DNA from: a virus
Reading direction: 5' to 3' (one strand)
Virus record (IMG/VR): IMGVR_UViG_3300034063_000636
Coordinates: 32,001-96,000 of that record
DNA: 64,000 bases
A program made the position numbers and the translations under genes. A model generated the notes under the pieces. That model did not search any database. It worked only from the letters and a program-made list of their open reading frames with translations, and was not told the origin of the DNA. The first letter of the stretch is position 1, and each line of letters starts with the position of its first letter. Below are positions 28,716-45,219 of this stretch, piece by piece.

Positions 28716-28940
28716 ATGTTAGTTAAGATAAAAGACAATGATGATCTTGCAAGAGATGTGAAGTCAAGAGCAATCTTGAATGTTAATAAAAACGTTTTGC
28801 TTAAAGATCAGATGTATCAAGAGAAACTAAAGAAACAACAAGAGGTAGAGTCCTCAATAAATACTCTCAGAGAAGAAGTATCTTCGATTAAAGGCGACAT
28901 TTCTAAGATTCTAGAAATGTTGAGTTCCAGAGGTAAATAA
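28716..28940 (+). CDS. small coiled-coil virion-associated protein
   Basis: VKIKD..DL.RD..S.AILN followed by a coiled coil; this type of gene usually follows VrlC-like genes in T4-like phages. Confidence 0.65.
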   Translation: MLVKIKDNDDLARDVKSRAILNVNKNVLLKDQMYQEKLKKQQEVESSINTLREEVSSIKGDISKILEMLSSRGK

Positions 28941-29983
28941 TGGCGAACACAAATATTTCACATGTCCAATTAGTGAACACCTTTAATGAGTGGCGTGCAG
29001 CAACTAATGACTTAATTGAAGATAGAAATATTCTTCGAAATGCTCATTATGTCAAAGATAATTCTTCTTTTGACATTGCAAACGGAACCATGACGATCAG
29101 CCGTTCAAGCAACGGCACAGTTCTAACAGTCGCAAACTCTGGTAACGTTGCTGTCGGTGGTTGGGTCAATGCAAATACTCTTGCAACAAACTCAGAACTC
29201 TGGTTTGGATTAAGAACTAGCGACATTGCTTCTGTCATTAAGATGACACAAGAGCCAGCAAATACTGTAGAGGCTGGAAACGCAACTTGGTATACTGCAA
29301 ATCAGAAATCAAATAATCCATATTACGGATTCACCTTCCACTCCAATGGCACAATGGTCATTGCGAATGAAGAGGAGAATGCAACTCAAGTGGTTGTCAT
29401 CGGTGACTCTGCTTACAATGTTTCTCCGACCAAAAATGGTACGATTTTTGGTGTCAGTACAATCGTTGGAACATCAGCACCAACAACAGGATATGAATCT
29501 GGTTGGCAACCCGTTCTAGACCTTCGAAGCAATTCTCTATTCATCATGCCAGTTGCTTCTGCAAATGCAGGCAATTGTTTGTATTACAACGTAACAACTG
29601 GCGAAATCACATACTCAACTGCGCCAAGCGGTAATGTTCTTGCTGGTGATCCAATTCTAATCAACACTGCAGTTGATTCTGCAAACACTGTAAGACTAAA
29701 TGTGTCAAACTGGTTCAAGTATACATTGACAGGATCATCTGGCAATCGTAATTTGACATTCACAAATCCTCCTGCTTCTGGCAATGCATATACGTTCACA
29801 ATGATTGTGATTCAAGATGGAACAGGCGGTAAAACTCCAAATTGGACAAATACAGTGTATTGGGCTGGTGGACAAATTCCTCCGCCAACAACTGACGCAA
29901 GCGCACAGGATATCTGGACATTTACCACATATGATGGTGGAACAACATATATTGGCACACTTGCTGTTAAAGACGCGAGATAA
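28940..29983 (+). CDS. short tail fibre / adhesin-carrier protein
   Basis: N-terminal NTFNEWRAATN fibre anchor; C-terminal LTFTNPPASG..QDGTGG..W..VYWAGG..DIWTF.TYDGG domain, similar to the C-terminus of 47971..49983. Confidence 0.7.
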   Translation: MANTNISHVQLVNTFNEWRAATNDLIEDRNILRNAHYVKDNSSFDIANGTMTISRSSNGTVLTVANSGNVAVGGWVNANTLATNSELWFGLRTSDIASVIKMTQEPANTVEAGNATWYTANQKSNNPYYGFTFHSNGTMVIANEEENATQVVVIGDSAYNVSPTKNGTIFGVSTIVGTSAPTTGYESGWQPVLDLRSNSLFIMPVASANAGNCLYYNVTTGEITYSTAPSGNVLAGDPILINTAVDSANTVRLNVSNWFKYTLTGSSGNRNLTFTNPPASGNAYTFTMIVIQDGTGGKTPNWTNTVYWAGGQIPPPTTDASAQDIWTFTTYDGGTTYIGTLAVKDAR

Positions 29984-29985: not shown

Positions 29986-31935
29986 ATGCCGAATAGTTTT
30001 GGCTTAAACAAAACTTGGATTCCTGGTCCTTCCAGAGGAACAACGACATTCAATACTACTGGCAATATTAATATTGCTTATGGTAGAAATAAAACCACAG
30101 TTTCAGGTCGTGGTGGTTCTGGTTCAGGTGCTTCATACAACACTGTTCCAGGAACAACTAATCCCACTACATTTCCATACACACCAGCATCGTATAATAC
30201 GGTTCCTGGAAATTTAAATCCAACAACTTATCCGTTTACTCCAGCATCATATAATACAGTGCCTGGAACGACAAATCCTACAACGTTTCCCTTTGTTCCT
30301 GCTAGTTATAATACTGTGCCTGGAAATACAAATCCACCAAACTATCCTTACACACCAGATAGTTACAACACTGTTCCTGGAACAACCAATCCAACAGTGT
30401 ATCCATATACTCCAGAAAGTTATAACACTGTTCCAGGAAATAGTAATCCGCCAAATTATCCATTTACTCCTGAATCATACAATACAGTGCCAGGAAACTT
30501 AAATCCAACCAATTATCCATACACACCAGCTTCGTACAATACAGTTCCTGGAAACACTAATCCAACTAACTACCCATTCGTTCCTGCATCATATAATACT
30601 GTTCCTGGTAATTTGAATCCAACAGTGTATCCATATACACCAGAGAGTTACAACACTGTTCCTGGAAATACAAATCCAACAAACTATCCATATACACCAG
30701 CTTCCTATAATACTGTTCCTGGAAATACTAATCCAACTAACTATCCATATACCCCAGAAAGTTATAACACAGTTCCTGGAAATACAAATCCAACGAATTA
30801 TCCGTACACTCCAGAGAGTTATAACACTGTAACAAACTATCCATATACTCCAGGCTCATATAACGCACCAACAGGTGTTAGTTGGAATTTGACTGCAATC
30901 GGACCAAGTTACGGTGGTGTTGCAACAATAATTGGTGACGGATTTGATACAAATTGCCCATCACCATATAGCACACCAACTCCGTTTGGTCCAGACGAAT
31001 TCACATATGAATGTTTCCCAGCTGGAAATACTGAAAATCCTGCGAGTTATAACACAGTTACCAATTATCCATATACACCTGCGTCGTATAATACAGTTCC
31101 AGGAAATGTAAATCCAACCAATTATCCGTTTACCCCTGCATCGTACAATACAGTCCCAGGAAATTTAAATCCAACGAACTATCCTTATGTTCCTGCAAGT
31201 TATAACACTGTTCCTGGCAATTTAAATCCAACCAATTATCCATACACACCAGCATCGTATAATACAGTTCCTGGAAACTTAAATCCAACGAACTATCCTT
31301 ATGTTCCTGCAAGTTATAACACTGTTCCAGGAAATGTAAATCCGACAGTGTATCCATATACTCCAGAAAGTTATAATACAGTTCCTGGTAACTTGAATCC
31401 GACTAATTATCCGTTTACTCCTGCATCGTATAATACGGTTCCTGGTAACAGCAATCCACCAACTTATCCATACACACCAGCGTCTTACAATACTGTTCCT
31501 GGGACAACAAATCCAACCAATTATCCGTATACACCAGCATCGTATAACACAGTATCAGGAAACTTAAATCCAACCAATTATCCATTCGTTCCTGCAAGTT
31601 ATAACACGGTTCCAGGAACGACAAATCCACCGTCGTATCCATTCGTGCCTGCAAGTTATAATACTGTGCCAGGAACAACAAATCCAACAGTGTATCCATT
31701 CGTCCCTGCAAGTTATAATACTGTGCCAGGAACAACAAATCCAACAGTGTATCCATTTACTCCAGGAGTTCCTGGAACACCAACAACTGTTCTTGGTGTA
31801 TACTTCCCAGGCGGTGTTGCTGGCGTTGCTCCATATGTTCCAGAAACTGTAGTGAATTATTGGGACTATCCAGATAATGCGACCTATCCAGTCACTGTTC
31901 CAACAGGTGCATACATAGTAGTGAAGATTGAATAA
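29986..31935 (+). CDS. Pro/Thr/Tyr/Asn repeat adhesin with symmetric 19-aa repeats around a 2-Cys central domain
   Basis: 649 aa = 49-aa N-term + 12x19 + 13 + 63-aa centre + 13 + 12x19 + 55-aa C-term. Confidence 0.8.
   Translation: MPNSFGLNKTWIPGPSRGTTTFNTTGNINIAYGRNKTTVSGRGGSGSGASYNTVPGTTNPTTFPYTPASYNTVPGNLNPTTYPFTPASYNTVPGTTNPTTFPFVPASYNTVPGNTNPPNYPYTPDSYNTVPGTTNPTVYPYTPESYNTVPGNSNPPNYPFTPESYNTVPGNLNPTNYPYTPASYNTVPGNTNPTNYPFVPASYNTVPGNLNPTVYPYTPESYNTVPGNTNPTNYPYTPASYNTVPGNTNPTNYPYTPESYNTVPGNTNPTNYPYTPESYNTVTNYPYTPGSYNAPTGVSWNLTAIGPSYGGVATIIGDGFDTNCPSPYSTPTPFGPDEFTYECFPAGNTENPASYNTVTNYPYTPASYNTVPGNVNPTNYPFTPASYNTVPGNLNPTNYPYVPASYNTVPGNLNPTNYPYTPASYNTVPGNLNPTNYPYVPASYNTVPGNVNPTVYPYTPESYNTVPGNLNPTNYPFTPASYNTVPGNSNPPTYPYTPASYNTVPGTTNPTNYPYTPASYNTVSGNLNPTNYPFVPASYNTVPGTTNPPSYPFVPASYNTVPGTTNPTVYPFVPASYNTVPGTTNPTVYPFTPGVPGTPTTVLGVYFPGGVAGVAPYVPETVVNYWDYPDNATYPVTVPTGAYIVVKIE
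30133..31767 (+). repeat. coding 57-nt tandem repeat (SYNTVPGxxNPxxYPYTPA): 24 full and 2 truncated units in two arms
   Basis: Counted from the translation; synonymous positions vary among units. Confidence 0.95.
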
Positions 31936-31989: not shown

Positions 31990-32580
31990 ATGCCATCATT
32001 CACAAAGTACATAAAACCACTTCCTCAGTTTTGTATTGTTGATAATTATTTCACTGAAGAAGAAGTCGATAAAATTATTGATCTTGAAGAATTGCAAGAA
32101 TTCAGTGAGGGTAAGATGGGAACTGGTCCATCAACAACCACTAATAAACAATATCGCGACAGTGACATTTCTTGGTTGAAATGGAGCCCAGATTCTAGAT
32201 GGATATTTGATAAATTTGGTTCATTGATGGGTCAAGTAAACCACTCTCACTTCATGTATGATATTGATGGTTTTGATGCGTTTCAATACACCAAGTATAA
32301 ACCAAAGCAACATTATAATTGGCACTTTGATGCCTTCACAGAATTTCATGGCTTCGAACGAAAGATTAGTGCAGTGGTAATTTTATCAGACCCCAAAAAA
32401 TATTCTGGTGGAGAATTTCAAATTGTTGCGGATGGAAATATAGAAAAACCGCACTCAATAAAACCACCAAAAGGTTCTGTAATATTCTTTGCTTCTTGGA
32501 TGCCGCATAGAGTTGCGCCAGTTAAATCTGGAGTTCGTAAATCTTTGGTTGCTTGGATTATGGGTAAAAGAGTATGCTAA
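31990..32580 (+). CDS. 2OG-Fe(II) oxygenase, prolyl 4-hydroxylase/PKHD-like
   Basis: YNWHFD (HxD)..RKIS..YSGGEF..G.VIFF.S..PHRV.PV..G.RKSLVAW. Confidence 0.9.
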   Translation: MPSFTKYIKPLPQFCIVDNYFTEEEVDKIIDLEELQEFSEGKMGTGPSTTTNKQYRDSDISWLKWSPDSRWIFDKFGSLMGQVNHSHFMYDIDGFDAFQYTKYKPKQHYNWHFDAFTEFHGFERKISAVVILSDPKKYSGGEFQIVADGNIEKPHSIKPPKGSVIFFASWMPHRVAPVKSGVRKSLVAWIMGKRVC

Positions 32581-33302
32581 ACAAATTGATTCGTGTTTTT
32601 AAAAATGATGTGATTGAATTTTACTGTCACCCAAAGTTTGAGAATGTCATTCCTGAACCAAAGCCAGCAATCAAATATTTGCCTGAGTGGTTTAGAATTA
32701 TTCCTCCAGTTTCAAAGACTCGGAGAGATGAATACAATGACTTTGCGATGAATGCTAAAAAGTGTTTCCCAATGATTGATGCAATGTCTTTGGGATATAC
32801 AATACCATTGTGTGGTGATATTCATGTCATGGTCAATAACGATATGACAGAAATGAAGTATACAAGCCCACCAGAAATGAAATTGGCAGATAGCCATAAC
32901 GTTGAACAAATTGGTGGAGAGTCAGCCCCAGGATTTCCAATCAATCCGATCAAGTTTATCAATTATTGGATTATTAAGACTGCTCCAGGCTGGTCGACAT
33001 TGTTTATTCCTCCAATTAATCATGTTGGAACTCCATTTACTTGTTTGGGTGGATTAGTTGACACTGATAGATATCCAAAGGAAGTTAATTTTCCAGCAAT
33101 TTGGAATCAGCCTGGTTTTGATGGATTAATTCGTGCAGGAACTCCTCTGGTGACTGCAATCCCAATTAAGAGAAATTCATTTCCGAAAAAACCAAAAGTC
33201 AGAAAAATTAAAGATAAAGAATTTAATGAGATTGAATTGATTCGAAAGAAACAAGTGACCAGAAAAAATGTATACACAAATGAATTGAGAGATGAACGAT
33301 GA
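32574..33302 (+). CDS. hypothetical protein, DUF6065-like (possible dUTPase-like fold)
   Basis: P.PA..LPEWF..KKC.P.IDAMS.GY.IP..W.IKT.PG.S.LF..P.N..G.VDTD..NFP..I.AGTPL...IP.KR. Confidence 0.6.
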   Translation: MLNKLIRVFKNDVIEFYCHPKFENVIPEPKPAIKYLPEWFRIIPPVSKTRRDEYNDFAMNAKKCFPMIDAMSLGYTIPLCGDIHVMVNNDMTEMKYTSPPEMKLADSHNVEQIGGESAPGFPINPIKFINYWIIKTAPGWSTLFIPPINHVGTPFTCLGGLVDTDRYPKEVNFPAIWNQPGFDGLIRAGTPLVTAIPIKRNSFPKKPKVRKIKDKEFNEIELIRKKQVTRKNVYTNELRDER

Positions 33303-34117
33303 AATTTTTTGATTTTTTTAAACCTAAAGAAACATTTAATGATTCGATTGACGATGAGATTAAGGAAATCTCAAACACTTCTGTTGTTCAATCGACTATT
33401 GGTAGAAACAAGTTAGAATTTATCGATTCATCAGAACTCGTATTTGCTAGTTTACCAATTCAATTAGCAAAAGATGTTCCTGTAAACTCGCAAGCACATG
33501 TAGAAAAGCTCGGAAATAAGTTCACATTTCCAGTCTGCCCTGGCATGTTTGACTATTCGCGACTTGGCTACATTGTTCCAGCCTGGTCAGACTATCATTT
33601 TAAGATAAATAAAGCTGGATGTGCTGCATTAGTTGGTGGGGGACAAAAAGCATCTCCATTTAAGCCTCCAGTTCCGATGGCAACTGATGTTGTCGATGGT
33701 CTTTTTAAATTAAGCGACGGAATTCCACTTAAAACATATAATATCAATTCTCCTTGGAAAATATTTTCTTACGACAAAGATATATCAGCATTACTTCTTC
33801 CTGCTTGGTATCATGCAGACGTAGAGTTTTTAGATAATTTTTATGTTTATCCTGGAGTTGTTGATTATAATACATTTCATACTATGAATGTCATTCTTTC
33901 TCCAAAAAGAAAGTGTGAGTATACGATTAAAGCGGGAGATCCTTTATTACACGTCATTCCGTTTTATAATAAACAAATTGAATGTGGTTATGGACCACCA
34001 AACATAGAACAAAAAAGCATATTATCATACGATCCTAAAATCCACGAAACGCAATTTTATCGAAAGAATCATATGATTAAAAAGAGTTTCGCACTAGAAG
34101 AAAGCAATAAAGAATGA
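33299..34117 (+). CDS. hypothetical protein, distant paralog of 32574..33302
   Basis: CPGMFDY..GYIVPAW..SPW..PGVVD..IKAGDPL.HVIPF shares the pattern of the upstream gene. Confidence 0.6.
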   Translation: MKFFDFFKPKETFNDSIDDEIKEISNTSVVQSTIGRNKLEFIDSSELVFASLPIQLAKDVPVNSQAHVEKLGNKFTFPVCPGMFDYSRLGYIVPAWSDYHFKINKAGCAALVGGGQKASPFKPPVPMATDVVDGLFKLSDGIPLKTYNINSPWKIFSYDKDISALLLPAWYHADVEFLDNFYVYPGVVDYNTFHTMNVILSPKRKCEYTIKAGDPLLHVIPFYNKQIECGYGPPNIEQKSILSYDPKIHETQFYRKNHMIKKSFALEESNKE

Positions 34118-35061
34118 AGATATTTGTAAGCATATGCTCATACAGAGACCCTCTGTTAGTATACACTCTAAAAGCATTAATGCAGACCAAGTCTGCAATT
34201 ACAGAAGTTGTGTACGGCATATTTGAACAAAATGAAAAAGAAAATAGTTTAGAAACTCTATTTCCAGATCTAGTCGCCAGAAGCGATGTAAAATATAAAC
34301 GAATCGATCCACAATACTCGGAAGGTGTTGGTTGGGCTCGAAATATTAATGCTCTCCAGTTAACTGACGAGGATTTTTATTATCAGATCGACTCTCACAT
34401 GGTTTTCGATAAGAATTGGGATCGCGATTTAATTAACGATTATAAAGAAGGCTGTAGAGCGATCGAGTCAAACAGAGTCATTATCAGTTCGAACTGTAAA
34501 AATTTCGAGATGGTCGATGGTAATGTCGTTTTAGAGCATGGCATGGACTATACATGCAGAGCAAGATTCTATCAGTTTAATCCAAATCTTTGGCTTTTTG
34601 CTCACGGCGAACATATTCCTCCAACTGAAACCGTGATGCCAGCGATACACATCTTTGCTGGAAATATGTTTACACACTCTGATTGGGTTCGAAATGTCGG
34701 AATCAATCCTAGAATATTCTTTCATGGAGAGGAGCAAGCGATAACTCTCTCATCGTTTGCTGCAGGATATCGATTTTTCCACGGAAAGAGGATGTCGTGC
34801 TATCACTATAAAGGATCTAATGAACATACATCAAAGCAGGACTTTAAACCTGTTGTTCCTTTAGAGATCATTGAAGAGAGAAAACGTAGATCAGAAATTG
34901 AATTTAGAGCATTTTTAGACTCTCTCGAGGACGATTTACTCGAGGAATACCGAGTCTACTCTGGCGTGAATTATATAAATAAGAAAATAGAAGAACGTGC
35001 CATAACCCGAGTGATTAAACCAAGCATCGATATTGACTGGGAAGTAGGCGATTCTGAATAA
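34114..35061 (+). CDS. GlcNAc-transferase-like glycosyltransferase (GT60/Gnt1-like, GT-A fold)
   Basis: IFVSICSYRDP..G(V)GWAR..E.FYYQIDSHM.F..WD (DxH motif)..FFHGEE..S..AG..YHY. Confidence 0.8.
   Translation: MKIFVSICSYRDPLLVYTLKALMQTKSAITEVVYGIFEQNEKENSLETLFPDLVARSDVKYKRIDPQYSEGVGWARNINALQLTDEDFYYQIDSHMVFDKNWDRDLINDYKEGCRAIESNRVIISSNCKNFEMVDGNVVLEHGMDYTCRARFYQFNPNLWLFAHGEHIPPTETVMPAIHIFAGNMFTHSDWVRNVGINPRIFFHGEEQAITLSSFAAGYRFFHGKRMSCYHYKGSNEHTSKQDFKPVVPLEIIEERKRRSEIEFRAFLDSLEDDLLEEYRVYSGVNYINKKIEERAITRVIKPSIDIDWEVGDSE
34974..34981 (+). promoter_or_regulatory. late promoter TATAAATA inside the glycosyltransferase 3' end, upstream of the long-fibre operon
   Basis: Perfect consensus about 105 nt before the ATG at 35087. 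Confidence 0.6.
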
Positions 35062-35086: not shown

Positions 35087-35419
35087 ATGCCATACGCAGA
35101 GTTAACGGTTGATCAGGGCACAACTTTCGAAACTTCTATAGATTTAGTTGGCGATGATGGCGCTGCGATCAATATCGCAGGGTGCGTTTTCTTGGGTCAA
35201 GTTCGCAAATCTTATTATTCTTCCAATGTAACTGCAAATCTGACAATTACCACTTTAAGTAATACAGGTGGAAATCTAATCATGTCTTTAAATTCAGCAG
35301 TCACTGCAAACATTAGAGCAGGTCGTTATCTTTATGACGTAAAGATGACTGATACAGATAACATAACAACTCGAGTCGTAGAAGGTATTCTAACTGTGAC
35401 ACCACAGGTGTCCAGATAA
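35087..35419 (+). CDS. small Ig-like fibre attachment protein
   Basis: ELTVDQGTTF..QVRKSY..LIMSL...TANI.AGRYLYDV..TRVVEG.LTV.PQV; immediately precedes the giant fibre. Confidence 0.7.
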   Translation: MPYAELTVDQGTTFETSIDLVGDDGAAINIAGCVFLGQVRKSYYSSNVTANLTITTLSNTGGNLIMSLNSAVTANIRAGRYLYDVKMTDTDNITTRVVEGILTVTPQVSR

Positions 35420-38400
35420 TGAAGATAACGATTACGAATAATAATCAGATCGGTAAGGTTACTTTCGGCAAAGTGACGAGAGTCGGCGATCTATATGCAA
35501 ACGATATTCTAGATCTTATAAACACAGTCGTTTATAGATCAGGCTCAACGATGACAGGCAACTTAAATGTTGCTGCGACAATTATTACGCAAAACGTAAT
35601 TCCGTCTGTCAATAATACATACAATCTTGGTAGTCCAACTTATCGATACAAAGATGCATACTTTGGTGGTAACACTGTATACATCGGCGACTCTATACTA
35701 TCAGCACAAGCAAACAGTCTTTTAACAAATACATTTATTGCTACAACATCATTTGTTAGTGGTGGCTTAAACGTTCTAGACCAAGCAAATGCTGCATATG
35801 CTGAAGCCAACTTAAAACTCGGTCTTGGTGGCGGTACAATTACAGGAAGTCTTACTGTAACTGGAAACCTCGAAGTTCTCGGTAATACAACAACACTTAA
35901 TGTTGAAACATTGTCACTCGAAGACAATGAAATTATTCTCAATTCAAATGTAACTGGTCCACCATTACTTGACTCGTTCATAACGATCAATCGTGGATCA
36001 ATGACAAATGCTGTTCTTAAGTGGGATGAAAGCACTGATCAATGGAAGTGGTCGGATGGCAATGGCGTATATTATGCACTAGATTCTTCTTTGGGCGCAT
36101 ATGCTCAAGCCAACGGAGCGTATGCACAAGCCAATGGTGCCTATGCTCAAGCAAACGGAGCCTATTCTCAAGCCAATGGTGCATTTGCGCAAGCAAACGG
36201 AGCATATGCTCAGGCTAACGGTGCTTACGCCCAAGCAAACGGAGCGTATGCGCAAGCAAATGCAGCAAGCGATAATGCAAACACGAGAGTTCTAAAAGCT
36301 GGCGATACAATGACTGGTCAGCTGAACATCAGTTCAGGCGGTCTTGTTGTCACTGGCAATATTGTTACAACTGGTGCAAGTGGCGACATAACTGGCGTCA
36401 ATACCATTTATGCTGGAACATTCTCAACAACAGCTGGATTAAATGTTACTGCTCAAGCAGCAAATGCTTACGAGCAAGCCAATAATGCTAGAACAACAGC
36501 AAATGGTGCATACTTACAAGCCAACGGCGCTTATGCACAGGCTAATGGGGCTTACGCTCAGGCAAATGGCGCATACGCTCAGGCAAATGGTGCTTATGCG
36601 CAAGCCAATGGTGCCTATGCACAAGCGAATGGTGTTTATGCTCACGCTAATGGAATTTATGATGTTGCAAACGCTGCATATGCTCAAGCCAATGCAGACT
36701 ATCAACCTGCTGTAACAAGATTTGATGTGACCTCTAGCGGAACATCAGCATACAGATTCGATCAATATGGCTCAATCGTTGACGATCCAACACTTTATGT
36801 TCGTGCTGGTGAAACTCTTGCATTCAATTTGAATGTAGTTGGGCATCCATTCATGATCCGCCAATCAAATGGTGGAGCAAATTATAATACTGGATTGACT
36901 CACGTTGAAACTACAGGTGTAATTTCTACAGGGGCGAGTGCACAAGGTAAAACAACAGGTGTTCTTTATTGGAAAGTTCCATTTGAACTTCAAGGCAACA
37001 CTTACGTTTATCAATGTCAAGTGCATTCTGCGATGGTTGGCAATATTGTTATTGAGCCACCATCAACGATCATTTATGCTCAAGCGAATGTTGCATTTGA
37101 TACTGCCAATGGTGCGTACTCACAAGCAAATGGTGCATATAGCCAAGCCAATGGCGCTTATGCACAAGCCAACGGTGCGTATGCGCAGGCAAATGGTGCC
37201 TATGCTCAAGCCAACTCAGCATATGCTCATGCAAACATAGTTTACGCTCAAGCCAACGCAAGTTTTGATCAAGCGAATACTGCTAGAACAACAGCAAATG
37301 ATGCATATGAGCAAGCAAACACTGCAAGAAGCACAGCCAACGATTCATATGCTCAAGCGAATACGGCACGTGATACTGGCAACAACGCATATGCTCAAGC
37401 AAACACCGCTCGCGATACAGCAAATGATTCTTACGCTCAAGCAAACACCGCTAGAGACACTGGTAACAATGCTTATCTGCAAGCCAATACTGCTAGAGAC
37501 ACTGGCAACAACGCATATGCTCAGGCGAATACCGCTAGAGATACTGGTAACGATGCATATAGTCAAGCGAACACTGCTCGCAATACTGCTAATGATGCAT
37601 ACTTACAAGCCAATAATGCATACGCTGAAGCCAATATAAAACTTAACATCTCTGGTGGATCGATCACTGGTGATTTGATCGTTTCTGGAAATCTAGAAGT
37701 TCTAGGAAACAGCACAACATTAAATGTTGAAACTCTTGCAATTGAAGACAATGAGATTATTCTCAACTCAAATGTAACTGGATCACCAACACTTGATGGC
37801 TTTATTACAATCAATCGTGGCAGCAACACAAATGCTTCGATTAAGTGGGATGAAAATACGAATCAGTGGAAGTGGACGGATGGTGATACATTCTTCTATG
37901 CATTTGACTCTGCTTTAGATGCTTATGCTCAAGCAAATACTGCACGTGATCAAGCCAATACCGCTAGAGAAACTGGCAATGATGCCTATGGTCAAGCCAA
38001 CACTGCAAGAACAACAGCAAACGACGCTTACCTTCAAGCCAATACTGCTCGCGACCAGGCAAATACGGCACGTGATACTGGCAACAATGCTTACGCTCAA
38101 GCGAATACAGCTCTTGATACCGCTAATGGTGCATACGCTCAAGCAAATGGCGCCTATGCTCAAGCCAACGGAGCGTATGCACAAGCAAATCTAGCATTTG
38201 GTCAAGCCAATGGTGCATACGCTCAAGCAAATGGTGCTTATGCGCATGCTAATATTGTTTACGCTCAAGCAAATGCTGCATTCAATCAGGCAAATACTGG
38301 AAATGACTCTGCAAATGCAGCCTATGCACAAGCAAATACTGCACGCGATACTGGCAACAATGCATATGGACAAGCGAACACAGCTCGCACAACTGCCAAT

Positions 38401-41400
38401 GACGCATATGCTCAAGCAAATACTGCTCTAGATACGGCAAACGGCGCATATGCCCAAGCAAATGGGGCTTATGCTCACGCAAATATTGTATATGCTCAAG
38501 CAAATACGGCTCGTGATACTGCAAATGCCGCTTATGGTCAAGCAAATGGTGCATTCGATCAAGCGAACGCTGCTTATAATCAAGCAAACACTGCCAGAAC
38601 AACTGCGAATGACGCTTATGGTCAGGCAAATAGCGCATTTAATCAAGCGAATGCAGCATATGACAAAGCCAATACTGCTCTAGACACAGCGAATGGAGCA
38701 TATGCCCAAGCAAATGGAGCCTACGCTCACGCTAACATTGTCTACGCTCAAGCCAATAATGCATACGATACAGCCAATCTAAAACTTAATATTGCTGGCG
38801 GTACAATTAATGGTTCATTGAACGTTTCTGGTAATTTAAGCATAACTGGTAATACAACATATTACAATGTGGCAACTTATGCTGTTGATGACCCATTAAT
38901 TTATCTTGGCGCAAATAATATTCTGAATGATATTGTTGATATAGGATTTATTGCCACGAAAAATACCAGCGGCAACTTGAGTCATACTGGGTTTGCTCGC
39001 GATGCTGGAGATGCTACTTGGTATTTGTTTGATAATCTATTAGATTCTGGTCACCAAAATAACATAGTCGACTTCGCAAATACCACACTCGCAACACTTC
39101 GCGCAAACATTGCTGCAAATAGCATACTCTTGATGGGTAATGTTGTTGCGACTCAAGCAAATCTAACACTCGCTCATAATCAAGCCAATACTGCAAATAA
39201 TACTGCGAATGGTGCATATTCTCAAGCCAATGGAGCCTATGCTCACGCTAATATAGTTTATGCACAAGCCAATGCTGCATTTAATCAAGCCAACGCTGCT
39301 TATGATAAGGCAAATGGCGCATTTGATACTGCTAATGGTGCATATTCTCAAGCGAACGGTGCTTATGCCCACGCGAATATTGTTTATGCTCAGGCTAACG
39401 CTGCATATGATAATGCAAATACCAGAGTTCTAAAATCTGGCGATACAATGACAGGCAATCTCAATGTGAGTGCCTTCATCATTACTAATAATGTTCAGCC
39501 AAATTTAAATGTTACATACGACCTTGGTTCACCAACCAAGAGATATAAGAATCTTTATCTTTCAAATAATGCACTACATTTGGGTGATGCGGTAATCACA
39601 TCAAATGGATCAACACTAGTTGTTTCTGGTGTTGAAATTGATGGCAGTGGAAATCTAATCGCTGCGTTTGATTCTTATGACCAAGCAAATACTGCTAGAG
39701 ATACTGCCAATGCTGCATACAATCAAGCAAACGGTGCGTTCAATCAGGCGAACGGTGCATATGCGCATGCTAACATAGTATATGCTCAGGCAAATGCTGC
39801 TTATGACCAAGCCAATACTGCTCGTGGAACTGCTAACGATGCGTATGCTCAAGCAAATACTGCACGTGATACTGGTAACAATGCATATGCTCAAGCCAAT
39901 ACTGCTCGAGACACAGCAAACGATGCTTATGGTCAAGCAAATACCGCCAGAACAACCGCGAATGATTCTTATAATCAAGCAAACACAGCGCGCACTACAG
40001 CCAATGATGCTTATGGTCAGGCAAACACAGCGCGTGGAACTGCGAATGATGCATATGGTCAAGCAAATGCTGCTTATCTCCAAGCCAATAATGCATATGA
40101 TGAGGCAAATCTAAAAGTTAATATTTCTGGTGGAACCATTTCTGGTGATTTGGTTGTTTCTGGTAATCTTTCTGTACTCGGAAATAGCACCACACTTAAT
40201 GTTGAAACTTTAAAAATTGAAGATAACGAAATTATCCTCAATTCGAATGTTACTGGATCGCCAACTCTTGATAGTTTCATCACAATCAATCGCGGCAGTT
40301 CAACAAACGCTGTCATTAAGTGGGATGAGAATACTGATCAATGGAAGTGGTCAGACGGCGACACATTCTTCTATGCGTTTGATTCTGCGTTGGATGCTTA
40401 TGCTCAAGCAAATACGGCACGCGCGACCGCCAATGATGCATATGGACAAGCCAACGTTGCTCGTGCGACTGCCAATGACTCGTATTTGCAAGCGAACACT
40501 GCTCGCGATACTGCAAATGCATCTTACGATCAAGCGAATACTGCAAGAACTACTGCCAATGACGCATACGGTCAAGCGAATACAGCTCGTACGACCGCTA
40601 ACGATTCTTATGCTCAAGCCAATACTGCAAGAAATACGGCTAACGACTCTTACGCTCAGGCGAATACTGCTCGAACAACAGCTAATGATGCTTATGCTCA
40701 GGCGAACACAGCACGCACTACTGCGAATGATTCCTATGCGCAGGCAAACACTGCTCGTAATACAGCCAATGATTCTTACGCTCAAGCAAATACCGCTCGC
40801 GCTACGGCAAATGATGCATACGGACAAGCGAACGCTGCGTATAACACAGCAAATACTGCAAACGCAACGGCAAATCTAGCATATGCTCAAGCCAATTCAA
40901 ATTACCAACCTGCAGTCACACGACTCAACGTAACAAACTCTGGCTTCTCTGCATATTTACTTGATCAATATCCTGGCAATAATCCAACTGTATACGTTAG
41001 AGGCGGTGAAACATTAGCGTTCGATCTAAACGTTTCTGGTCACCCATTCATGATTCGTCAGTCAAGCGGCGGAGCAAATTATAACACTGGATTGACTCAC
41101 GTTTCTTCAACTGGTGTTGTTTCTACTGACGGTAGCGCTCAGGGGCAAGTTTCAGGAACATTGTATTGGAAGGTTCCGTATAATATTGTTGGCAACACTT
41201 ATGTTTATCAGTGTTCAATTCATGGTGGTATGGTTGGCAACATTGTTATTGAACCATCAGTGATTGTTGCTTATGCTCAAGCGAATGCAGCATTTGATAC
41301 CGCCAACGGTGCATATGCCCATGCAAATATTGTCTATGCACAAGCAAATGCTGCATACAATGATGCAAACGGCGCATATGCGCAAGCCAACGGTGCTTAT

Positions 41401-42831
41401 GCTCAAGCAAATGGAGCTTATTCTCAAGCCAATGGTGCCTATGCACAGGCTAACGGTGCATACGCTCAAGCGAATATCGTTTATGCTCAAGCAAATGCAG
41501 CGTATGAAAAGGCAAATGCGCCAATCACCGTTAAGGAAATTTATGCTGGCAATTCAACAGTAGTCAATACTTACACCAATATCAATACAATTCAATTTGA
41601 TTCTGACTCTGGAATGGCAGTTGTAAATGCTGCTTCGAACACAGTCACGATTCAGTTGAATAGTACATTCAAGAATTGGAACGTAGATGGAAATGCTGGA
41701 CTTGTTGCAGTTGGTCTTGATACTGTAAACTTTATTGCTGGCAGTGGAATTTCGATTGCTGCAAACAATAATGCATCACCAAAATCTATTACATTCACCA
41801 GTACTGGTGGTGGCGGTGGCGCAGCTAACGTTATCGTTAAAGACGAAGGAACAACTCTTACATCAGCTGTAACTTCGATTGACTTTACTGGTGGTGGTGT
41901 AACTGCAACAGCAAGTGGAAGTAATGTAACAATTTCTGTTCCAGTTGGATTGTCAAATACAATCATCAAAACTGTTTCTTATACTTCCACAAATGCTGCA
42001 GCAAATTTAACGTATGCTCTACCATTAACACCATCAGATCCTTCATATATCTTTGTGATTAAGAACGGTATTGTTCTTACACCAAATACGGATTATAGCC
42101 TCAGTGGAAATACACTTACTGTAATCGAATCTGGTGCGGCAAACGATGCGATCGAAGTTCGTTATTTTGATCAAGTTAATATTGTAGAGTATCCAAATAC
42201 AAAAATTGAAGTTGATTCAAACACTGTCGCTTCGCAAACGAATACATTCTATGTCACGAGTAATGTTGCTGCAATAAGCCGACTCTCTATCTCTAAGAAT
42301 GGTTTGTTGCTCACACCAAATCTACACTTCACAGTGACTGGAAATACTGTAACGTTAAATACAGCTGCTGAGATTAACGATGTATTGACCTTTACACATA
42401 TTCGTGATTTGGGACCATTAGAAGGTTCTGGTTTAACAGAATACAACTATAACACAAGCACATCTTCTGTTGAAACAGTCGATTCTTGGTCTAAGAATAC
42501 CTATCGCAGCGGTAAGTATCAAGTTCAAGTTGAAAGTGGCGCTGGATATTATGCCACTGAAATCATGATTATTCATGATGACTCTACTACAAATTTAATA
42601 CAGTATGGAACATCTTCTTTTGGTTCGAATGTTGGCGTGTTTTCTTCTGACATAAGCGGAAGCAACGTTCGACTATTGTTTACTGCAACTGATTCCACTT
42701 CGTTTGTAACTTATAATAGAGTTCTTTTGACAAAGAGATCTTCTGAATCGTTACCGACAGATTTGATGACTGGAAGCGATGCGTATGATCTCATGTTGAC
42801 TCTACCATTTAACCCAACAGACCTCAATTAA
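35419..42831 (+). CDS. giant long tail fibre (2470 aa): Ala-rich heptad coiled coils, repeated beta knots, two cupredoxin-like domains
   Basis: Many AYAQANG and AYAQANTARDTAND repeats; LKAGDTMTG motifs; three copies of the GNLEVLGN.TTLNVETL.IEDNEIILN..KWDE.T.QWKW.DG domain; two GHPF...YQCxxHxxMVG domains. Confidence 0.85.
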   Translation: MKITITNNNQIGKVTFGKVTRVGDLYANDILDLINTVVYRSGSTMTGNLNVAATIITQNVIPSVNNTYNLGSPTYRYKDAYFGGNTVYIGDSILSAQANSLLTNTFIATTSFVSGGLNVLDQANAAYAEANLKLGLGGGTITGSLTVTGNLEVLGNTTTLNVETLSLEDNEIILNSNVTGPPLLDSFITINRGSMTNAVLKWDESTDQWKWSDGNGVYYALDSSLGAYAQANGAYAQANGAYAQANGAYSQANGAFAQANGAYAQANGAYAQANGAYAQANAASDNANTRVLKAGDTMTGQLNISSGGLVVTGNIVTTGASGDITGVNTIYAGTFSTTAGLNVTAQAANAYEQANNARTTANGAYLQANGAYAQANGAYAQANGAYAQANGAYAQANGAYAQANGVYAHANGIYDVANAAYAQANADYQPAVTRFDVTSSGTSAYRFDQYGSIVDDPTLYVRAGETLAFNLNVVGHPFMIRQSNGGANYNTGLTHVETTGVISTGASAQGKTTGVLYWKVPFELQGNTYVYQCQVHSAMVGNIVIEPPSTIIYAQANVAFDTANGAYSQANGAYSQANGAYAQANGAYAQANGAYAQANSAYAHANIVYAQANASFDQANTARTTANDAYEQANTARSTANDSYAQANTARDTGNNAYAQANTARDTANDSYAQANTARDTGNNAYLQANTARDTGNNAYAQANTARDTGNDAYSQANTARNTANDAYLQANNAYAEANIKLNISGGSITGDLIVSGNLEVLGNSTTLNVETLAIEDNEIILNSNVTGSPTLDGFITINRGSNTNASIKWDENTNQWKWTDGDTFFYAFDSALDAYAQANTARDQANTARETGNDAYGQANTARTTANDAYLQANTARDQANTARDTGNNAYAQANTALDTANGAYAQANGAYAQANGAYAQANLAFGQANGAYAQANGAYAHANIVYAQANAAFNQANTGNDSANAAYAQANTARDTGNNAYGQANTARTTANDAYAQANTALDTANGAYAQANGAYAHANIVYAQANTARDTANAAYGQANGAFDQANAAYNQANTARTTANDAYGQANSAFNQANAAYDKANTALDTANGAYAQANGAYAHANIVYAQANNAYDTANLKLNIAGGTINGSLNVSGNLSITGNTTYYNVATYAVDDPLIYLGANNILNDIVDIGFIATKNTSGNLSHTGFARDAGDATWYLFDNLLDSGHQNNIVDFANTTLATLRANIAANSILLMGNVVATQANLTLAHNQANTANNTANGAYSQANGAYAHANIVYAQANAAFNQANAAYDKANGAFDTANGAYSQANGAYAHANIVYAQANAAYDNANTRVLKSGDTMTGNLNVSAFIITNNVQPNLNVTYDLGSPTKRYKNLYLSNNALHLGDAVITSNGSTLVVSGVEIDGSGNLIAAFDSYDQANTARDTANAAYNQANGAFNQANGAYAHANIVYAQANAAYDQANTARGTANDAYAQANTARDTGNNAYAQANTARDTANDAYGQANTARTTANDSYNQANTARTTANDAYGQANTARGTANDAYGQANAAYLQANNAYDEANLKVNISGGTISGDLVVSGNLSVLGNSTTLNVETLKIEDNEIILNSNVTGSPTLDSFITINRGSSTNAVIKWDENTDQWKWSDGDTFFYAFDSALDAYAQANTARATANDAYGQANVARATANDSYLQANTARDTANASYDQANTARTTANDAYGQANTARTTANDSYAQANTARNTANDSYAQANTARTTANDAYAQANTARTTANDSYAQANTARNTANDSYAQANTARATANDAYGQANAAYNTANTANATANLAYAQANSNYQPAVTRLNVTNSGFSAYLLDQYPGNNPTVYVRGGETLAFDLNVSGHPFMIRQSSGGANYNTGLTHVSSTGVVSTDGSAQGQVSGTLYWKVPYNIVGNTYVYQCSIHGGMVGNIVIEPSVIVAYAQANAAFDTANGAYAHANIVYAQANAAYNDANGAYAQANGAYAQANGAYSQANGAYAQANGAYAQANIVYAQANAAYEKANAPITVKEIYAGNSTVVNTYTNINTIQFDSDSGMAVVNAASNTVTIQLNSTFKNWNVDGNAGLVAVGLDTVNFIAGSGISIAANNNASPKSITFTSTGGGGGAANVIVKDEGTTLTSAVTSIDFTGGGVTATASGSNVTISVPVGLSNTIIKTVSYTSTNAAANLTYALPLTPSDPSYIFVIKNGIVLTPNTDYSLSGNTLTVIESGAANDAIEVRYFDQVNIVEYPNTKIEVDSNTVASQTNTFYVTSNVAAISRLSISKNGLLLTPNLHFTVTGNTVTLNTAAEINDVLTFTHIRDLGPLEGSGLTEYNYNTSTSSVETVDSWSKNTYRSGKYQVQVESGAGYYATEIMIIHDDSTTNLIQYGTSSFGSNVGVFSSDISGSNVRLLFTATDSTSFVTYNRVLLTKRSSESLPTDLMTGSDAYDLMLTLPFNPTDLN

Positions 42832-42876: not shown

Positions 42877-43371
42877 ATGCCAACAACATTACAATTTAGA
42901 CGTTATGGAACTGCAGCCACTGCATCAGTTACTGGTGCAAATGGTGAATTGACGATTGATACTGATAAAGAAACAGTCGTCGTTCATGACGGATCCACGG
43001 CTGGTGGGTATGCGCTCGTAAGAGATGGCGCTGCAACGATCAGCGACACGTTCGGAAATCTTCGTGGAATTCCGATTTCTGGTTCAGAAAAATCTACCAG
43101 TTATACGCTCGCTGCAAATGATGTTGGTCGTTTGGTGATCGTAACAACTAGCGGAAGCATTACAGTTCCGAACACCACATTTGGTGGTGGTAATGTTGTT
43201 TCAGTTTACAATAACACAAGCAGCAACGTTGTGCTTACATTGAGCACTGCGGCAGCATATGTTTCTGGCAATAATACAAATAGAACATCTCTTAATCTAG
43301 CAACTCGCGGCATTGCAACAGTTCTTTATATTAGTTCAAATTCTTGCGTAATTACAGGAAGCGTATCATAA
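42877..43371 (+). CDS. fibre connector with Mtd_N-like N-terminus
   Basis: MPTTLQFRR..T......G..GELTIDTDK.TVVVHDGSTAGG; C-terminal small beta domain SYTL..ND.G..ITVP. Confidence 0.7.
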   Translation: MPTTLQFRRYGTAATASVTGANGELTIDTDKETVVVHDGSTAGGYALVRDGAATISDTFGNLRGIPISGSEKSTSYTLAANDVGRLVIVTTSGSITVPNTTFGGGNVVSVYNNTSSNVVLTLSTAAAYVSGNNTNRTSLNLATRGIATVLYISSNSCVITGSVS

Positions 43372-43372: not shown

Positions 43373-45043
43373 ATGGGTGGTATTCATTTAGCATTGATGG
43401 CTTCGTTTTCTACCACTGGTGTCAGTTTCGGCACAGGAACTGTCATTCAATCATTCACATCAACTGGTTCTTGGACATGCCCAACAGGCGTTACTTCTGT
43501 TGAATGTCTTTTAGTTGCTGGTGGTGGCGGTGGAACAAATGACCTTGCTGGCGGAGCAGGTGCAGGTGGAGTTGTATACAATAATTCAGTTTCAGTAACA
43601 CCAGGAACAACATATACAATTACAGTTGGTGCTGGTGGAGCTGCTGCCAGCAATGGTGTGAATTCAAGTGCATTCAGTATGACAACAGCTGTTGGTGGTG
43701 GGACAAGCGGTGCTTATAATGGTGGATCAGGATCTGCTGGTAAAAATGGCGGATCAGGTGGAGGTGGCGGCGCAACACCATCATACAGTGGTCCAGGCGG
43801 TAGCGCTGTATATCCAGGATCCCCATTTATTAGTGCAACAAGACAAGGATATGATGGCGGTCAGGGAACTGCAGGTGGTGGTTCTGGTGGTTATGGCAGA
43901 TCTGGCGGTGGCGGTGGAGCTGGAGAAGCAGGTAAAGCAGGATCAGCTGGAAGCGGTGGTGGAGCAGGAACCAATGTACACAGCACGTTACTTCAATCTG
44001 CTGGTTTTGGTGTATTGTCTGGTGGATTATATTACATAGCAGGTGGTGGTGGCGGCGCTGAAGATGGCGGACCAGGAGGAGTTGGTGGTGGTGGAAATGG
44101 CGGATATCGAAACGGCGCACTCGCAACTGCAGGTCAAACAAACACTGGTGGTGGAGGAGGTGGGAATTGGTATGCTGCAGCTGGCGGTGCTGGTGGTTCT
44201 GGATTAGCAATTATTAAGTACACCCAACCAACTGTTGTTGGAACTGTTTATACATTTACCACATCTGGAACTTGGACTGCTCCAACTGGCGTCACTTCCG
44301 TTGATTATCTCGTTGTTGCTGGTGGTGGAGGAGGTGGAACTATTGGCGGAGGCGGTGGTGCTGGTGGATACCGAACAGGGACTGGATTTGCAGTTACACC
44401 TGGAAACACTTATACCATTACTGTCGGATCTGGTGGTGCAGGATCACCAAATAGTGTTAGTTCAACTAATCCACAAGCATCCAATGGATCTAGTTCAGTT
44501 TTTGATACAATAACGTCTGCAGGTGGCGGCGGTGGCGGATCGTATAATGCTCCTGCAGGTGCTGGCAATAATGGACGTGCTGGTGGATCAGGCGGTGGTG
44601 GCGGTTTAAATGGTGGACCATCGTCAGGTGGTGCTGGCAATACTCCATCAACATCACCATCTCAAGGAAATAATGGTGGAGCAGCAACACCTTCTGCTGC
44701 AGCGGGTCAGGGCGCAGGTGGCGGAGGTGGAGCTGGAGCGGCAGGTGATAGTGGTGGAACAGCACCTTCTGCTGGTGGTAATGGCGGTAATGGTGCAGCA
44801 TCTACGATCACAGGCACATCTGTAACTTACGCTGGTGGCGGTGGTGGAGCTGGCAACGTTGCCCCAGCTCCTGCAGGCACTGGCGGATCAGGTGGTGGTG
44901 GTGCTGGATCAAATACTCTTAACGGGACAAATGGAGCCGCTGGTCTTGGTGGTGGCGGCGGTGGCGGTGGCAATGGTCCTTCTGGTTATATGGGTGGCGG
45001 CACTGGTGGATCAGGTATAGTAATCATTAAGGTTGCAGCATAA
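43373..45043 (+). CDS. glycine-rich adhesin (2 polyglycine domains)
   Basis: Two copies of FTS.G.WT.P.GVTSV..L.VAGGGGG...GGSG..IIKY with poly-Gly runs. Confidence 0.8.
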   Translation: MGGIHLALMASFSTTGVSFGTGTVIQSFTSTGSWTCPTGVTSVECLLVAGGGGGTNDLAGGAGAGGVVYNNSVSVTPGTTYTITVGAGGAAASNGVNSSAFSMTTAVGGGTSGAYNGGSGSAGKNGGSGGGGGATPSYSGPGGSAVYPGSPFISATRQGYDGGQGTAGGGSGGYGRSGGGGGAGEAGKAGSAGSGGGAGTNVHSTLLQSAGFGVLSGGLYYIAGGGGGAEDGGPGGVGGGGNGGYRNGALATAGQTNTGGGGGGNWYAAAGGAGGSGLAIIKYTQPTVVGTVYTFTTSGTWTAPTGVTSVDYLVVAGGGGGGTIGGGGGAGGYRTGTGFAVTPGNTYTITVGSGGAGSPNSVSSTNPQASNGSSSVFDTITSAGGGGGGSYNAPAGAGNNGRAGGSGGGGGLNGGPSSGGAGNTPSTSPSQGNNGGAATPSAAAGQGAGGGGGAGAAGDSGGTAPSAGGNGGNGAASTITGTSVTYAGGGGGAGNVAPAPAGTGGSGGGGAGSNTLNGTNGAAGLGGGGGGGGNGPSGYMGGGTGGSGIVIIKVAA

Positions 45044-45219
45044 TGGCAAAACCAAAACAATATCAAGTTCAAGAATTACAAACAGATCTTGGAACAATAC
45101 ACACTCAAGCAAACACTGCTTATGGTCAAGCCAACGCTGCATATGCTGCAGCGAATAATGCATATGCTGCAGCAAATAGTGCTAGTGGTGGATTCGCAAA
45201 AGTCTTTTTCAGTTTATAA
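45043..45219 (+). CDS. mini connector peptide (58 aa)
   Basis: Below the track cutoff: MAKPKQYQVQELQTDLGTIHTQANTAYGQANAAYAAANNAYAAANSASGGFAKVFFSL*; ATG overlaps the upstream TAA; same heptads as the giant fibre. Confidence 0.8.
   Translation: MAKPKQYQVQELQTDLGTIHTQANTAYGQANAAYAAANNAYAAANSASGGFAKVFFSL

What the first reader, a model, noticed from the sequence alone, without database searches (positions are those of the whole stretch)
29986..31935. Mirror-symmetric stalk-and-knob adhesin: 12+12 repeats around a two-Cys tip
Seen: exactly 12 full 19-aa repeats plus one 13-aa truncated unit, a unique 63-aa domain holding the protein's only two Cys (30856-31044), then one 13-aa truncated unit plus exactly 12 full repeats. 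Variants partly mirror each other: the rare GNSNPP unit is 6th from the outer end in both arms, and GTT units occupy positions 1, 3 and 5 from both ends. The termini (TTTFNTTGNI..SGRGGSG and GAYIVVKIE) resemble the two halves of the beta-sandwich base of the Gly-rich adhesins. Inference: a single chain forms a long antiparallel hairpin stalk projecting a disulfide-bonded receptor-binding knob; arm lengths must co-evolve, which is unusual for tandem repeats.
Basis: partly seen in the sequence, partly recalled or inferred. Interest (0 to 1): 0.8.

Follow-up and report, generated by a model that had tools for sequence, protein, structure and literature searches.

The report
Fold-back phage fibre with pairing arms
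A T4-like phage encodes a 649-residue protein whose two 12-repeat arms most likely zip together back-to-front into a thin stalk with a small cysteine-pair knob at its tip, and about 130 uncharacterised relatives keep the two arms matched segment by segment.

Summary
ORF 29986-31935 encodes 12 x 19-aa units, a 13-aa unit, a 63-aa insert with the only two Cys, a 13-aa unit, then 12 x 19-aa units.

The fold-back reading is strongly supported by comparison, not by a structure:
- **Base:** AlphaFold folds the first ~47 and last ~55 residues into one confident beta-sandwich.
- **Arm lengths:** 129 distinct full-length relatives have inserts of about 25 to 744 aa. Arm lengths covary (r = 0.95, median difference 5 aa).
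- **Near-isogenic allele:** a phage with 98-100% identical flanking proteins has 11+11 units.
- **Pairing rule:** relatives with irregular arms are "reverse-complementary" at segment level. YN-type segments face YP-type segments. In a second subfamily, NTNY faces IANQP. Shuffles essentially never reach this.

Weaker or open points:
- Residue-level mirroring inside this protein is weak.
- The proposed link to the neighbouring Gly-rich proteins is not significant.
- The stalk's atomic structure, oligomeric state and ligand are unknown.
- Knobs are swapped among arm types.
- A prolyl-hydroxylase-like oxygenase and a GlcNAc-type transferase follow the gene in nearly all ~30 loci where the downstream region is present.

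No Pfam, PHROG, PDB or GenBank-phage match was found. This scan has already noted similar fold-back fibres on other DNA.

The parts
29986..31935 (+). Whole gene, 649 aa plus stop: fold-back fibre protein
   Evidence: ORF. Full-length relatives in 31 viral loci and 143 database representatives.
29986..30132 (+). N-terminal half of the base (aa 1-49; motif KTWxPGxSRGTxTFNxxGN...SGRGGSG)
   Evidence: Conserved in all relatives. AF2 pLDDT is about 80-98, with three strands that pack with the C-terminal half.
30133..30816 (+). Arm 1: 12 x 19-aa units (aa 50-277). Each unit is an S segment (SYNTVPG), a linker (NxNPT) and a Y segment (NYPYTPA).
   Evidence: AF2 gives no confident structure, pLDDT 30-40.
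30817..30855 (+). 13-aa unit lacking the linker (aa 278-290), next to the knob
   Evidence: The same short unit is found at the mirrored place in arm 2 and in L002.
30856..31044 (+). Knob (aa 291-353), carrying the only two Cys: C324 at nt 30955-30957 and C343 at nt 31012-31014
   Evidence: AF2 pLDDT is about 70-90, with four strands. The same knob type sits on unrelated arms in L017 and P0001.
31045..31083 (+). 13-aa unit lacking the linker (aa 354-366), mirror partner of 30817-30855
31084..31767 (+). Arm 2: 12 x 19-aa units (aa 367-594)
   Evidence: The token string of the whole protein is 79/81 self-complementary under reversal with the S<->Y swap.
31768..31932 (+). C-terminal half of the base (aa 595-649; motif PGxPGxPTxVLGVYFPGG...YWDYPD...VPxGxxIVVKIE)
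   Evidence: Conserved in all relatives. AF2 pLDDT is about 80-98.
28940..29983 (+). Upstream neighbour whose C-terminus matches tail-fibre PHROGs. It ends 3 nt before the target's start codon.
   Evidence: phrog_9017, E = 1.6e-13. The adjacency is kept in most loci.
31990..32580 (+). 2OG-Fe(II) oxygenase of the prolyl-hydroxylase type: first gene of the conserved downstream cassette
   Evidence: PF13640, E = 1.4e-18. Nearest solved relatives are PKHD-type and prolyl hydroxylases, including 4iw3 and 5c5t. It lies downstream of the target in nearly all loci whose downstream region is present.
32574..34117 (+). Two paralogous genes of unknown function (phrog_7084, weak DUF6065), part of the same cassette
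34114..35061 (+). Glycosyltransferase of the Pfam 'GlcNAc' family, last gene of the cassette
   Evidence: PF11397, E = 8e-32. Conserved in the loci.

Best explanation
The gene encodes a fibre-like appendage protein of an uncultured T4-like phage, probably a cyanophage.

**Proposed fold.**
- The first ~47 and last ~55 residues fold together into one small beta-sandwich base.
- The 546 residues between them leave the base as arm 1 and form a ~60-residue knob with one Cys pair.
- The chain then returns as arm 2, which lies antiparallel to arm 1 and pairs with it segment by segment.
- Each Tyr/Asn-type segment (SYNTVPG) faces a Tyr/Pro-type segment (NYPYTPA). Each linker (GNxNPT) faces a linker.
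- The knob is therefore held at the far end of a thin stalk. If the arms are fully extended, 241 residues per arm would give roughly 75 nm.

**What is shown.** The repeat anatomy; the one-domain base, as a prediction; arm-length covariation; the pairing rule across relatives; swapping of knob modules; and the conserved gene neighbourhood.

**What is inferred.**
- The base docks on the virion.
- The knob binds a host-surface ligand.
- The Cys pair is a disulfide.
- The adjacent prolyl-hydroxylase-like oxygenase and glycosyltransferase modify the arms' prolines.
For: 1. **Anatomy.** It is exact.
2. **One base domain.** AF2 models the N and C parts with pLDDT 80-98 in both the 649-aa protein and its 159-aa natural mini-version P0028, which has pTM 0.67. 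Single-domain beta-sandwiches align to 80-90 residues spanning both halves, more than either half holds alone.
3. **Base kept, insert varies.** 129 distinct full-length relatives keep the base while the insert varies from about 25 to 744 aa.
4. **Arm lengths covary.** Using Cys positions, n = 47, r = 0.955, slope 0.88. Taking the knob as the longest non-repetitive stretch, n = 69, r = 0.95, median difference 5 aa; members without Cys give r = 0.97.
5. **Near-isogenic allele.** L002 has flanking proteins 98-100% identical but is 11+11 instead of 12+12, with two 57-nt indels at mirrored places.
6. **Pairing rule in irregular arrays.** L003 is 64/66 tokens self-complementary and L006 is 40/43, each with 0 of 100,000 shuffles reaching that.
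7. **Second subfamily.** Base-to-tip unit pairs always follow WNVE<->WVIE, WNVIE<->WNVIE and WVE<->WVE. L017 fits at 11/11, L017b at 11/11 and L013 at 8/8. Unit-order shuffles within arms reach this 0/5000, 0/5000 and 9/5000 times.
8. **Other subfamilies.** Two different repeat types fill the two arms in matched numbers. P0047 is 3+3. P0146 tokenises as four of one type, the Cys pair, then four of the other. P0048 and P0109 have roughly equal runs, 5-7 by a crude tokeniser.
9. **No DNA palindrome**.
10. **Context.** T4-type baseplate and fibre genes lie around the gene. Knobs and arms recombine independently.
Against: - No confident structure of the arms was obtained. pLDDT is 30-40 in the full protein and 49-62 in the mini-version, so the physical nature of the pairing is unknown.
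- Residue-level mirroring within this protein is weak.
- For a perfectly regular (S-L-Y)n array, self-complementarity follows from equal counts alone. For this particular protein the rule therefore rests on its relatives.
- The slot rule for the second subfamily was chosen after seeing the data, though the nulls used the same rule. Two members, L010 and L016, fit poorly with my tokeniser.
- Relatives are not independent samples.
- There is no evidence that the protein is in the virion, and none for a ligand.
Confidence: 0.78

Rival explanations
1. The fold-back topology is the same, but the pairing occurs within an oligomer. One option is three chains forming a six-stranded interwoven stalk like the T4 gp37 needle. 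Another is swapped pairing, with arm 1 of one chain against arm 2 of another.
For: Phage fibres are usually trimers. In the gp37 tip each chain runs to the tip and turns back, with both termini in the collar (PMC9603124, read). The base resembles C1q/TNF-type jelly rolls only weakly, Z about 4. Monomer AF2 could not fold the arms, which might mean partners are missing. L029 splits the protein into two genes, so pairing in trans is possible.
Against: AF2 folds the base confidently as a monomer from one chain's two ends. The protein has no His at all, so gp37-type HxH iron sites are absent. There is no sequence relation to gp37.
Confidence: 0.25
2. The arms pair as two layers of a compact sandwich or solenoid-like stack, each 7-residue segment being a short cross-strand. 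The result would be a short, thick rod of one to a few tens of nanometres rather than a long two-stranded stalk.
For: The units break into 7-residue half-segments that can occur alone: SYNTxPA and SYPYxPx in L003 and P0028. This would suit short strands or polyproline-type segments packed side by side. The neighbouring Gly-rich proteins (PF21722) suggest that the phage uses packed short-segment domains.
Against: Proline occurs every 3-7 residues and there are no Gly-rich faces for tight packing. AF2 predicts no strands in the arms. Mirror complementarity is compatible with this model but does not require it.
Confidence: 0.15
3. The arms do not pair. They are disordered, possibly glycosylated, extensin- or mucin-like spacers, and the symmetry is a historical accident of duplication.
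For: The composition is Pro/Thr/Asn/Tyr-rich and AF2 confidence is low. Two relatives give compositional hits to Extensin_1. Hydroxylase and glycosyltransferase genes lie next door.
Against: This cannot explain mirrored, complementary unit order in irregular arrays, matched arm lengths over 20-340 aa, or the 12+12 to 11+11 change. DNA of the two arms is no more alike than that of units within an arm.
Confidence: 0.04
4. The protein is a parallel solenoid or a linear trimeric shaft with the termini at opposite ends and the 63-aa segment as a mid-shaft bulge.
For: Many phage shafts are linear repeats.
Against: AF2 puts the two termini in one domain, and the shortest relatives (133-160 aa) are little more than that domain. 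Arm symmetry and complementarity have no rationale in a linear shaft.
Confidence: 0.03

Closest known systems
Streptococcal antigen I/II adhesins (SpaP, SspB, BspA)
   Same: One chain folds back so that two different repeat regions flanking a variable head domain associate into a long thin stalk of more than 50 nm, presenting the head at the tip. Pairing uses Tyr residues against PxxP pockets, or an Asn seam against the Pro-rich strand, and the N and C ends lock together (PMC7732690). Here too, Tyr/Asn-rich segments face Pro-bearing segments.
   Different: In AgI/II one arm is an Ala-rich alpha-helix. Here both arms carry Pro every few residues and no helix is predicted. There is no LPXTG anchor, no lectin-like V domain and no sequence similarity. 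The host is a phage, not a Gram-positive cell wall.
Needle (domains D10-D11) of the T4 long tail fibre protein gp37
   Same: It is a phage fibre in which each chain runs from a collar to the tip and turns back, so both termini lie in the collar and the stem is an insertion into it (PMC9603124). The phage type is also T4-like.
   Different: The gp37 needle is about 20 nm long, an interwoven homotrimer, and held by His-coordinated iron sites (PMC6957217). This protein has no His, has arms up to ten times longer, carries a separate knob domain, and shows no sequence match.
Bovine ultralong CDR H3 'stalk and knob' (from my own knowledge; lead from an earlier scan note)
   Same: A two-stranded antiparallel stalk from a single chain carries a small disulfide-bonded knob that does the binding.
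   Different: The antibody stalk has about 10-20 residues per strand and is not repetitive. Context and origin are unrelated. Not tested here.
Glycine-rich domain proteins (Pfam PF21722) of the same phage, window 43373-57167
   Same: They lie in the same genome region. The start motif (TFxxxGxxxxPxG...GGxG) and end motif (GGxIxVxK) look alike by eye. Gly-rich domain proteins recur among non-significant BFVD rows.
   Different: No significant profile match: hhalign E = 0.07-0.39 and no Pfam hit at E <= 1 in 86 members. The inserted part is Pro/Asn/Tyr repeats plus a knob instead of Gly-rich loops.
CUB domains of alpha2-macroglobulin and complement proteins (CD109, A2M, C5)
   Same: These are the best structural rows for the base: a beta-sandwich whose chain is interrupted by a large inserted domain (Z 4.9-5.6, about 82 residues).
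   Different: The Z values lie in the range of chance fold resemblance. There is no sequence similarity. Only the split-sandwich topology is comparable.

Membership tests
T4 gp37 needle-type fold-back fibre tip | The chain runs to the tip and returns, with both termini in one basal domain | tested here: met
   AF2 places the N and C parts in one domain. Arm covariation and mirror complementarity support the return path. All of this is indirect, not a structure.
T4 gp37 needle-type fold-back fibre tip | Repeated His-x-His motifs coordinating iron along the stem | tested here: not met
   The 649-aa protein contains no His (composition).
T4 gp37 needle-type fold-back fibre tip | Sequence relationship to gp37 or related fibre families | tested here: not met
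   No Pfam, PHROG or PDB sequence hit.
T4 gp37 needle-type fold-back fibre tip | Interwoven homotrimer | not testable with these tools
   The oligomeric state needs a physical measurement.
Streptococcal antigen I/II adhesins | An Ala-rich alpha-helical arm pairing with a Pro-rich PPII arm | tested here: not met
   Ala is 28 of 649 residues. Both arms are Pro-rich, and AF2 predicts no helix of four or more residues anywhere.
Streptococcal antigen I/II adhesins | LPXTG cell-wall anchor and AgI/II Pfam domains | tested here: not met
   The protein ends ...IVVKIE and has no Pfam hit.
Streptococcal antigen I/II adhesins | Matched numbers of the two kinds of repeat flanking an apical domain | tested here: met
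   12+12 here and 11+11 in L002. Complementary repeat types occur in matched numbers in other subfamilies. This is a resemblance in how it works, not membership.
Pfam PF21722 Gly_rich_2 | Match to the family profile | tested here: not met
   No hit in the target or in any of 86 relatives at E <= 1. The window's own Gly-rich proteins hit at 1e-39 to 1e-73.
Pfam PF21722 Gly_rich_2 | Remote homology of the first and last strands | tested here: inconclusive
   hhalign gives E = 0.34, 0.065 and 0.39, with the N-terminal motifs aligned in the expected register. BFVD rows are non-significant.
C1q/TNF-like jelly-roll | Fold match of the base domain | tested here: inconclusive
   Z 4.0-4.7 over 82-90 residues, tied with many unrelated sandwiches.

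The most novel reading that the evidence does not exclude
These phage proteins use a modular protein-protein pairing code. Short Tyr/Asn segments zip against short Pro-bearing segments, so a single chain forms a stem-and-loop like an RNA hairpin, tens of nanometres long. The length is set by the number of paired units, the tip carries an exchangeable knob, and the stalk is stiffened by phage-encoded proline hydroxylation and glycosylation. This would be a stalk structure with no solved precedent and could serve as a programmable rod for protein design.
Probability: 0.35. Interest if true: 0.9.

Novelty: new variant of a known kind. Interest (0 to 1): 0.8.

Why it matters
**A structural rule read from sequence.** Optional segments in one arm are always matched by specific partner segments at the mirrored place in the other arm, much as covariation reveals RNA stems. 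This gives a family of about 130 uncharacterised phage proteins a testable architecture: a base, a stalk of adjustable length and an exchangeable tip.

**Host range.** The gene sits in the host-recognition region of T4-like phages. It differs between phages that are otherwise almost identical, so it is a candidate determinant of which cells these uncultured phages attach to.

**A candidate modification system.** The invariable neighbourhood of a prolyl-hydroxylase-like enzyme and a GlcNAc-type transferase points to a possible hydroxyproline-glycosylation system in bacteriophages. That would be unusual.

**Design.** The stalk could offer a new building block of defined length.

Tried and rejected
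- **Full-length searches of GenBank phages.** DNA and protein queries found nothing. The base-dominated query P0028 also found nothing. The family is absent from 50,697 named phage records, at least at this sensitivity.
- **Family and structure libraries.** Pfam and PHROGs gave no family. PDB sequence searches gave only chance hits. The ESM Atlas gave no usable hit.
- **AF2 on the arms.** The full protein and the 159-aa mini-version both gave confident bases but unmodelled arms. No statement on the stalk's atomic structure is possible.
- **Three copies of P0028 in complex prediction.** The verdict was 'no answer', score 0.00. This is not evidence either way.
- **Link to Gly_rich_2.** Three profile-profile attempts were not significant.
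- **Whole-unit mirror identity within the window protein.** Marginal, so not used as the main argument.
- **Crude A/B tokeniser.** It only gave rough counts for other subfamilies. The W/N/V/I/E tokeniser fits L010 and L016 poorly.
- **DNA palindrome as the cause of the mirror pattern.** Rejected.
Full report
**What is there.** The window is bases 32001-96000 of a 108-kb IMG/VR viral contig, estimated about 63% complete. The genes around the finding are T4-type baseplate and fibre genes. The 1147-aa neighbour matches baseplate wedge proteins, mostly in cyanophage records. The gene just upstream has a tail-fibre-type C-terminus. ORF 29986-31935 (+) encodes 649 aa. The protein has no His or Gln, and 51% of it is Pro, Thr or Asn.

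**How much of the internal mirror is real.** The equal count and the mirrored 13-aa units are exact. The rare GNSNPP unit is 6th from the outside in both arms. Overall, though, variants mirror each other only weakly: P = 0.065 for whole units and none at DNA level; P = 0.01 for the linker segments alone. Units share about 73% DNA identity and about 81% protein identity, and the two arms are no closer to each other than units within an arm. No long inverted DNA repeat exists. The symmetry is therefore old and maintained at protein level.

**A family with a constant base and a variable insert.**
- A word-based search found 17 relatives. A profile search of 1.84 billion representatives found 143. 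A scan of viral contigs found 31 loci.
- Small HMMs for the N and C parts show 129 distinct full-length members. Their lengths run from 133 to 866 aa and their inserts from about 25 to 744 aa.
- None has a name, and no Pfam, PHROG, PDB or GenBank-phage match exists.
- AF2 models the N and C parts confidently in the window protein (pLDDT about 80-93) and in the natural 159-aa mini-version P0028 (92-98, pTM 0.67).
- The knob is modelled at 70-90. The arms are not modelled: 30-40 in the full protein and 49-62 in P0028.
- Single-domain beta-sandwiches align to 80-90 residues spanning both halves, so the halves form one domain in the model. All matches are weak (Z <= 5.6), and the best are CUB domains that are themselves split by an inserted domain.

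- Across 47 representatives with exactly two Cys, the distance from base to first Cys and from second Cys to base correlate with r = 0.955 and slope 0.88, over 23-278 aa.
- A Cys-independent definition takes the knob as the longest non-repetitive stretch. It gives r = 0.95 and a median difference of 5 aa for 69 members with 0 or 2 Cys, and r = 0.97 for the 24 without Cys.
- Examples: 247/242 here, 228/223 in L002, 252/253 in L017, 309/311 in L019.
- L002 comes from a phage whose flanking proteins are 98-100% identical to the window's. Its allele is 11 + short unit + knob + short unit + 11.
- The two alleles are 100% identical over the first 456 nt. They then diverge, with two 57-nt indels at mirrored places.
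- So both arms changed together in a nearly isogenic background.

**A pairing rule.**
- The 19-aa unit is composite: an S segment (SYNTVPG), a linker (NxNPT) and a Y segment (NYPYTPA). Relatives use these pieces separately.
- P0028 reads S-Y-Y-Y then S-S-S-Y.
- L003 has irregular mixtures of 7-aa S units, 7-aa Y units and 13-aa SY units. Reversing its token string and swapping S with Y reproduces the string at 64 of 66 positions. L006 gives 40 of 43. In both cases 0 of 100,000 shuffles do as well.
- A second subfamily has quite different units: AWTINY (W), NTNY (N), NVAYP (V), IANQP (I) and EAARP (E), with N and I optional.
- Read from base to tip, a WNVE unit in one arm always faces WVIE in the other, WNVIE faces WNVIE, and WVE faces WVE. 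This holds for 11/11 units in L017, 11/11 in its tandem paralog L017b and 8/8 in L013.
- Shuffling unit order within each arm, which keeps composition, reaches this fit 0/5000, 0/5000 and 9/5000 times.
- Further subfamilies put two different repeat types in the two arms in matched numbers.
- In every case a Tyr/Trp/Asn-rich piece faces a piece ending in Pro.
- This is what one expects if the arms lie antiparallel and in register. A linear shaft, unpaired spacers or a DNA-level cause cannot easily explain it.

**Caveats.**
- For the perfectly regular window protein, the rule reduces to equal counts.
- The slot rule of the second subfamily was fixed after inspection.
- L010 and L016 fit poorly with my tokeniser.
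- Relatives are not independent samples.

**Knob and modularity.** Cys counts in the insert are even in 123 of 129 members: 0 in 48, 2 in 57, 4 in 14. This is consistent with disulfide pairs but does not prove them. Knobs move independently of the base and arms. L003 shares 85% of the base but has an unrelated knob. L017 (64% base) and P0001 (69% base) carry the window's knob type at 57-58% identity on different arms. Some members have two knobs, some none, and one lineage has 22-24 Cys in the arms.

**Neighbourhood.** In about 30 loci the order is: large structural protein, small protein, fibre-like protein, this gene (sometimes two tandem copies), a 2OG-Fe(II) oxygenase, two paralogous unknowns, and a glycosyltransferase. 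The oxygenase is PF13640 and its nearest solved relatives are PKHD-type and prolyl hydroxylases. The transferase is PF11397, the 'GlcNAc' family. Modification of the arms' prolines is a reasonable inference but was not tested.

**Comparison with what is known.**
- In how it works, the closest analogue is the streptococcal antigen I/II stalk. There, repeat regions on either side of a head domain associate, through Tyr-PxxP or Asn-seam contacts, into a stalk of more than 50 nm (PMC7732690).
- The T4 gp37 needle is also close: each chain runs to the tip and turns back (PMC9603124).
- It is a member of neither. There is no helix-forming Ala-rich arm, no LPXTG, no His for iron sites and no sequence similarity.
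- The proposed kinship with the phage's Gly-rich (PF21722) proteins is not significant.

**Earlier scan notes.** This scan had already described fold-back fibres with mirror-complementary arms in other, mostly marine, T4-like phages. Whether they share this base was not tested. I treat those notes as agreement, not as evidence.

**Verdict.** Fold-back topology with co-evolving, complementary arms is strongly supported by comparative evidence (about 0.8). The stalk's physical structure, its oligomeric state, the disulfide, the receptor-binding role and the modification remain inferences.

Noticed in passing
L029:5980-9581: A two-gene form of the family. ORF1 (738 aa) has the N-base, arms and a Cys knob, and ends in a Hint/intein-type module (PF01079, 30.2 bits; starts CFVAGTLV, ends NYFANGVLVG). 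ORF2 (461 aa) starts at ORF1's stop and carries more arms, two knobs and the C-base. Whether the Hint domain cleaves, ligates or is a remnant is unknown.
   Followed up: partly
L017:6001-10267: Two tandem paralogs of the fibre gene (679 and 734 aa) with different knobs. Each obeys the arm-pairing rule on its own. L007, L010-L012, L016 and L026 also have about 2 kb between the target and the oxygenase.
   Followed up: partly
window 31990-35061: A conserved four-gene cassette directly downstream of the fibre gene: a prolyl-hydroxylase-like 2OG oxygenase, two phrog_7084/DUF6065-like paralogs, and a PF11397 GlcNAc-type glycosyltransferase. It is kept in about 30 viral loci.
   Followed up: partly
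window 32574-33302: The unknown cassette gene (phrog_7084) has its best named relatives in haloarchaeal tailed viruses (HF1, HRTV and HSTV series; 32-36% identity over 96% of its length), with only three cyanophage records.
   Followed up: no
window 42877-43371: A 164-aa protein whose N-terminus matches PF18454 (Mtd_N, major tropism determinant N-terminal domain; E = 2e-9), just upstream of the series of multi-domain Gly_rich_2 proteins (43373-57167).
   Followed up: no
window 35419-42831: A 2470-aa protein made largely of AYAQANG/TARDTAND-type heptad-like repeats. It contains two copies of a segment with a cupredoxin-like ligand pattern (GHPF ... YQC.xH..M.G).
   Followed up: no
P0011 and L023:5992-7560: A lineage of the same family whose arms carry 22-24 Cys in a regular pattern, instead of Tyr/Pro units. 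This suggests a disulfide-laddered version of the stalk.
   Followed up: no
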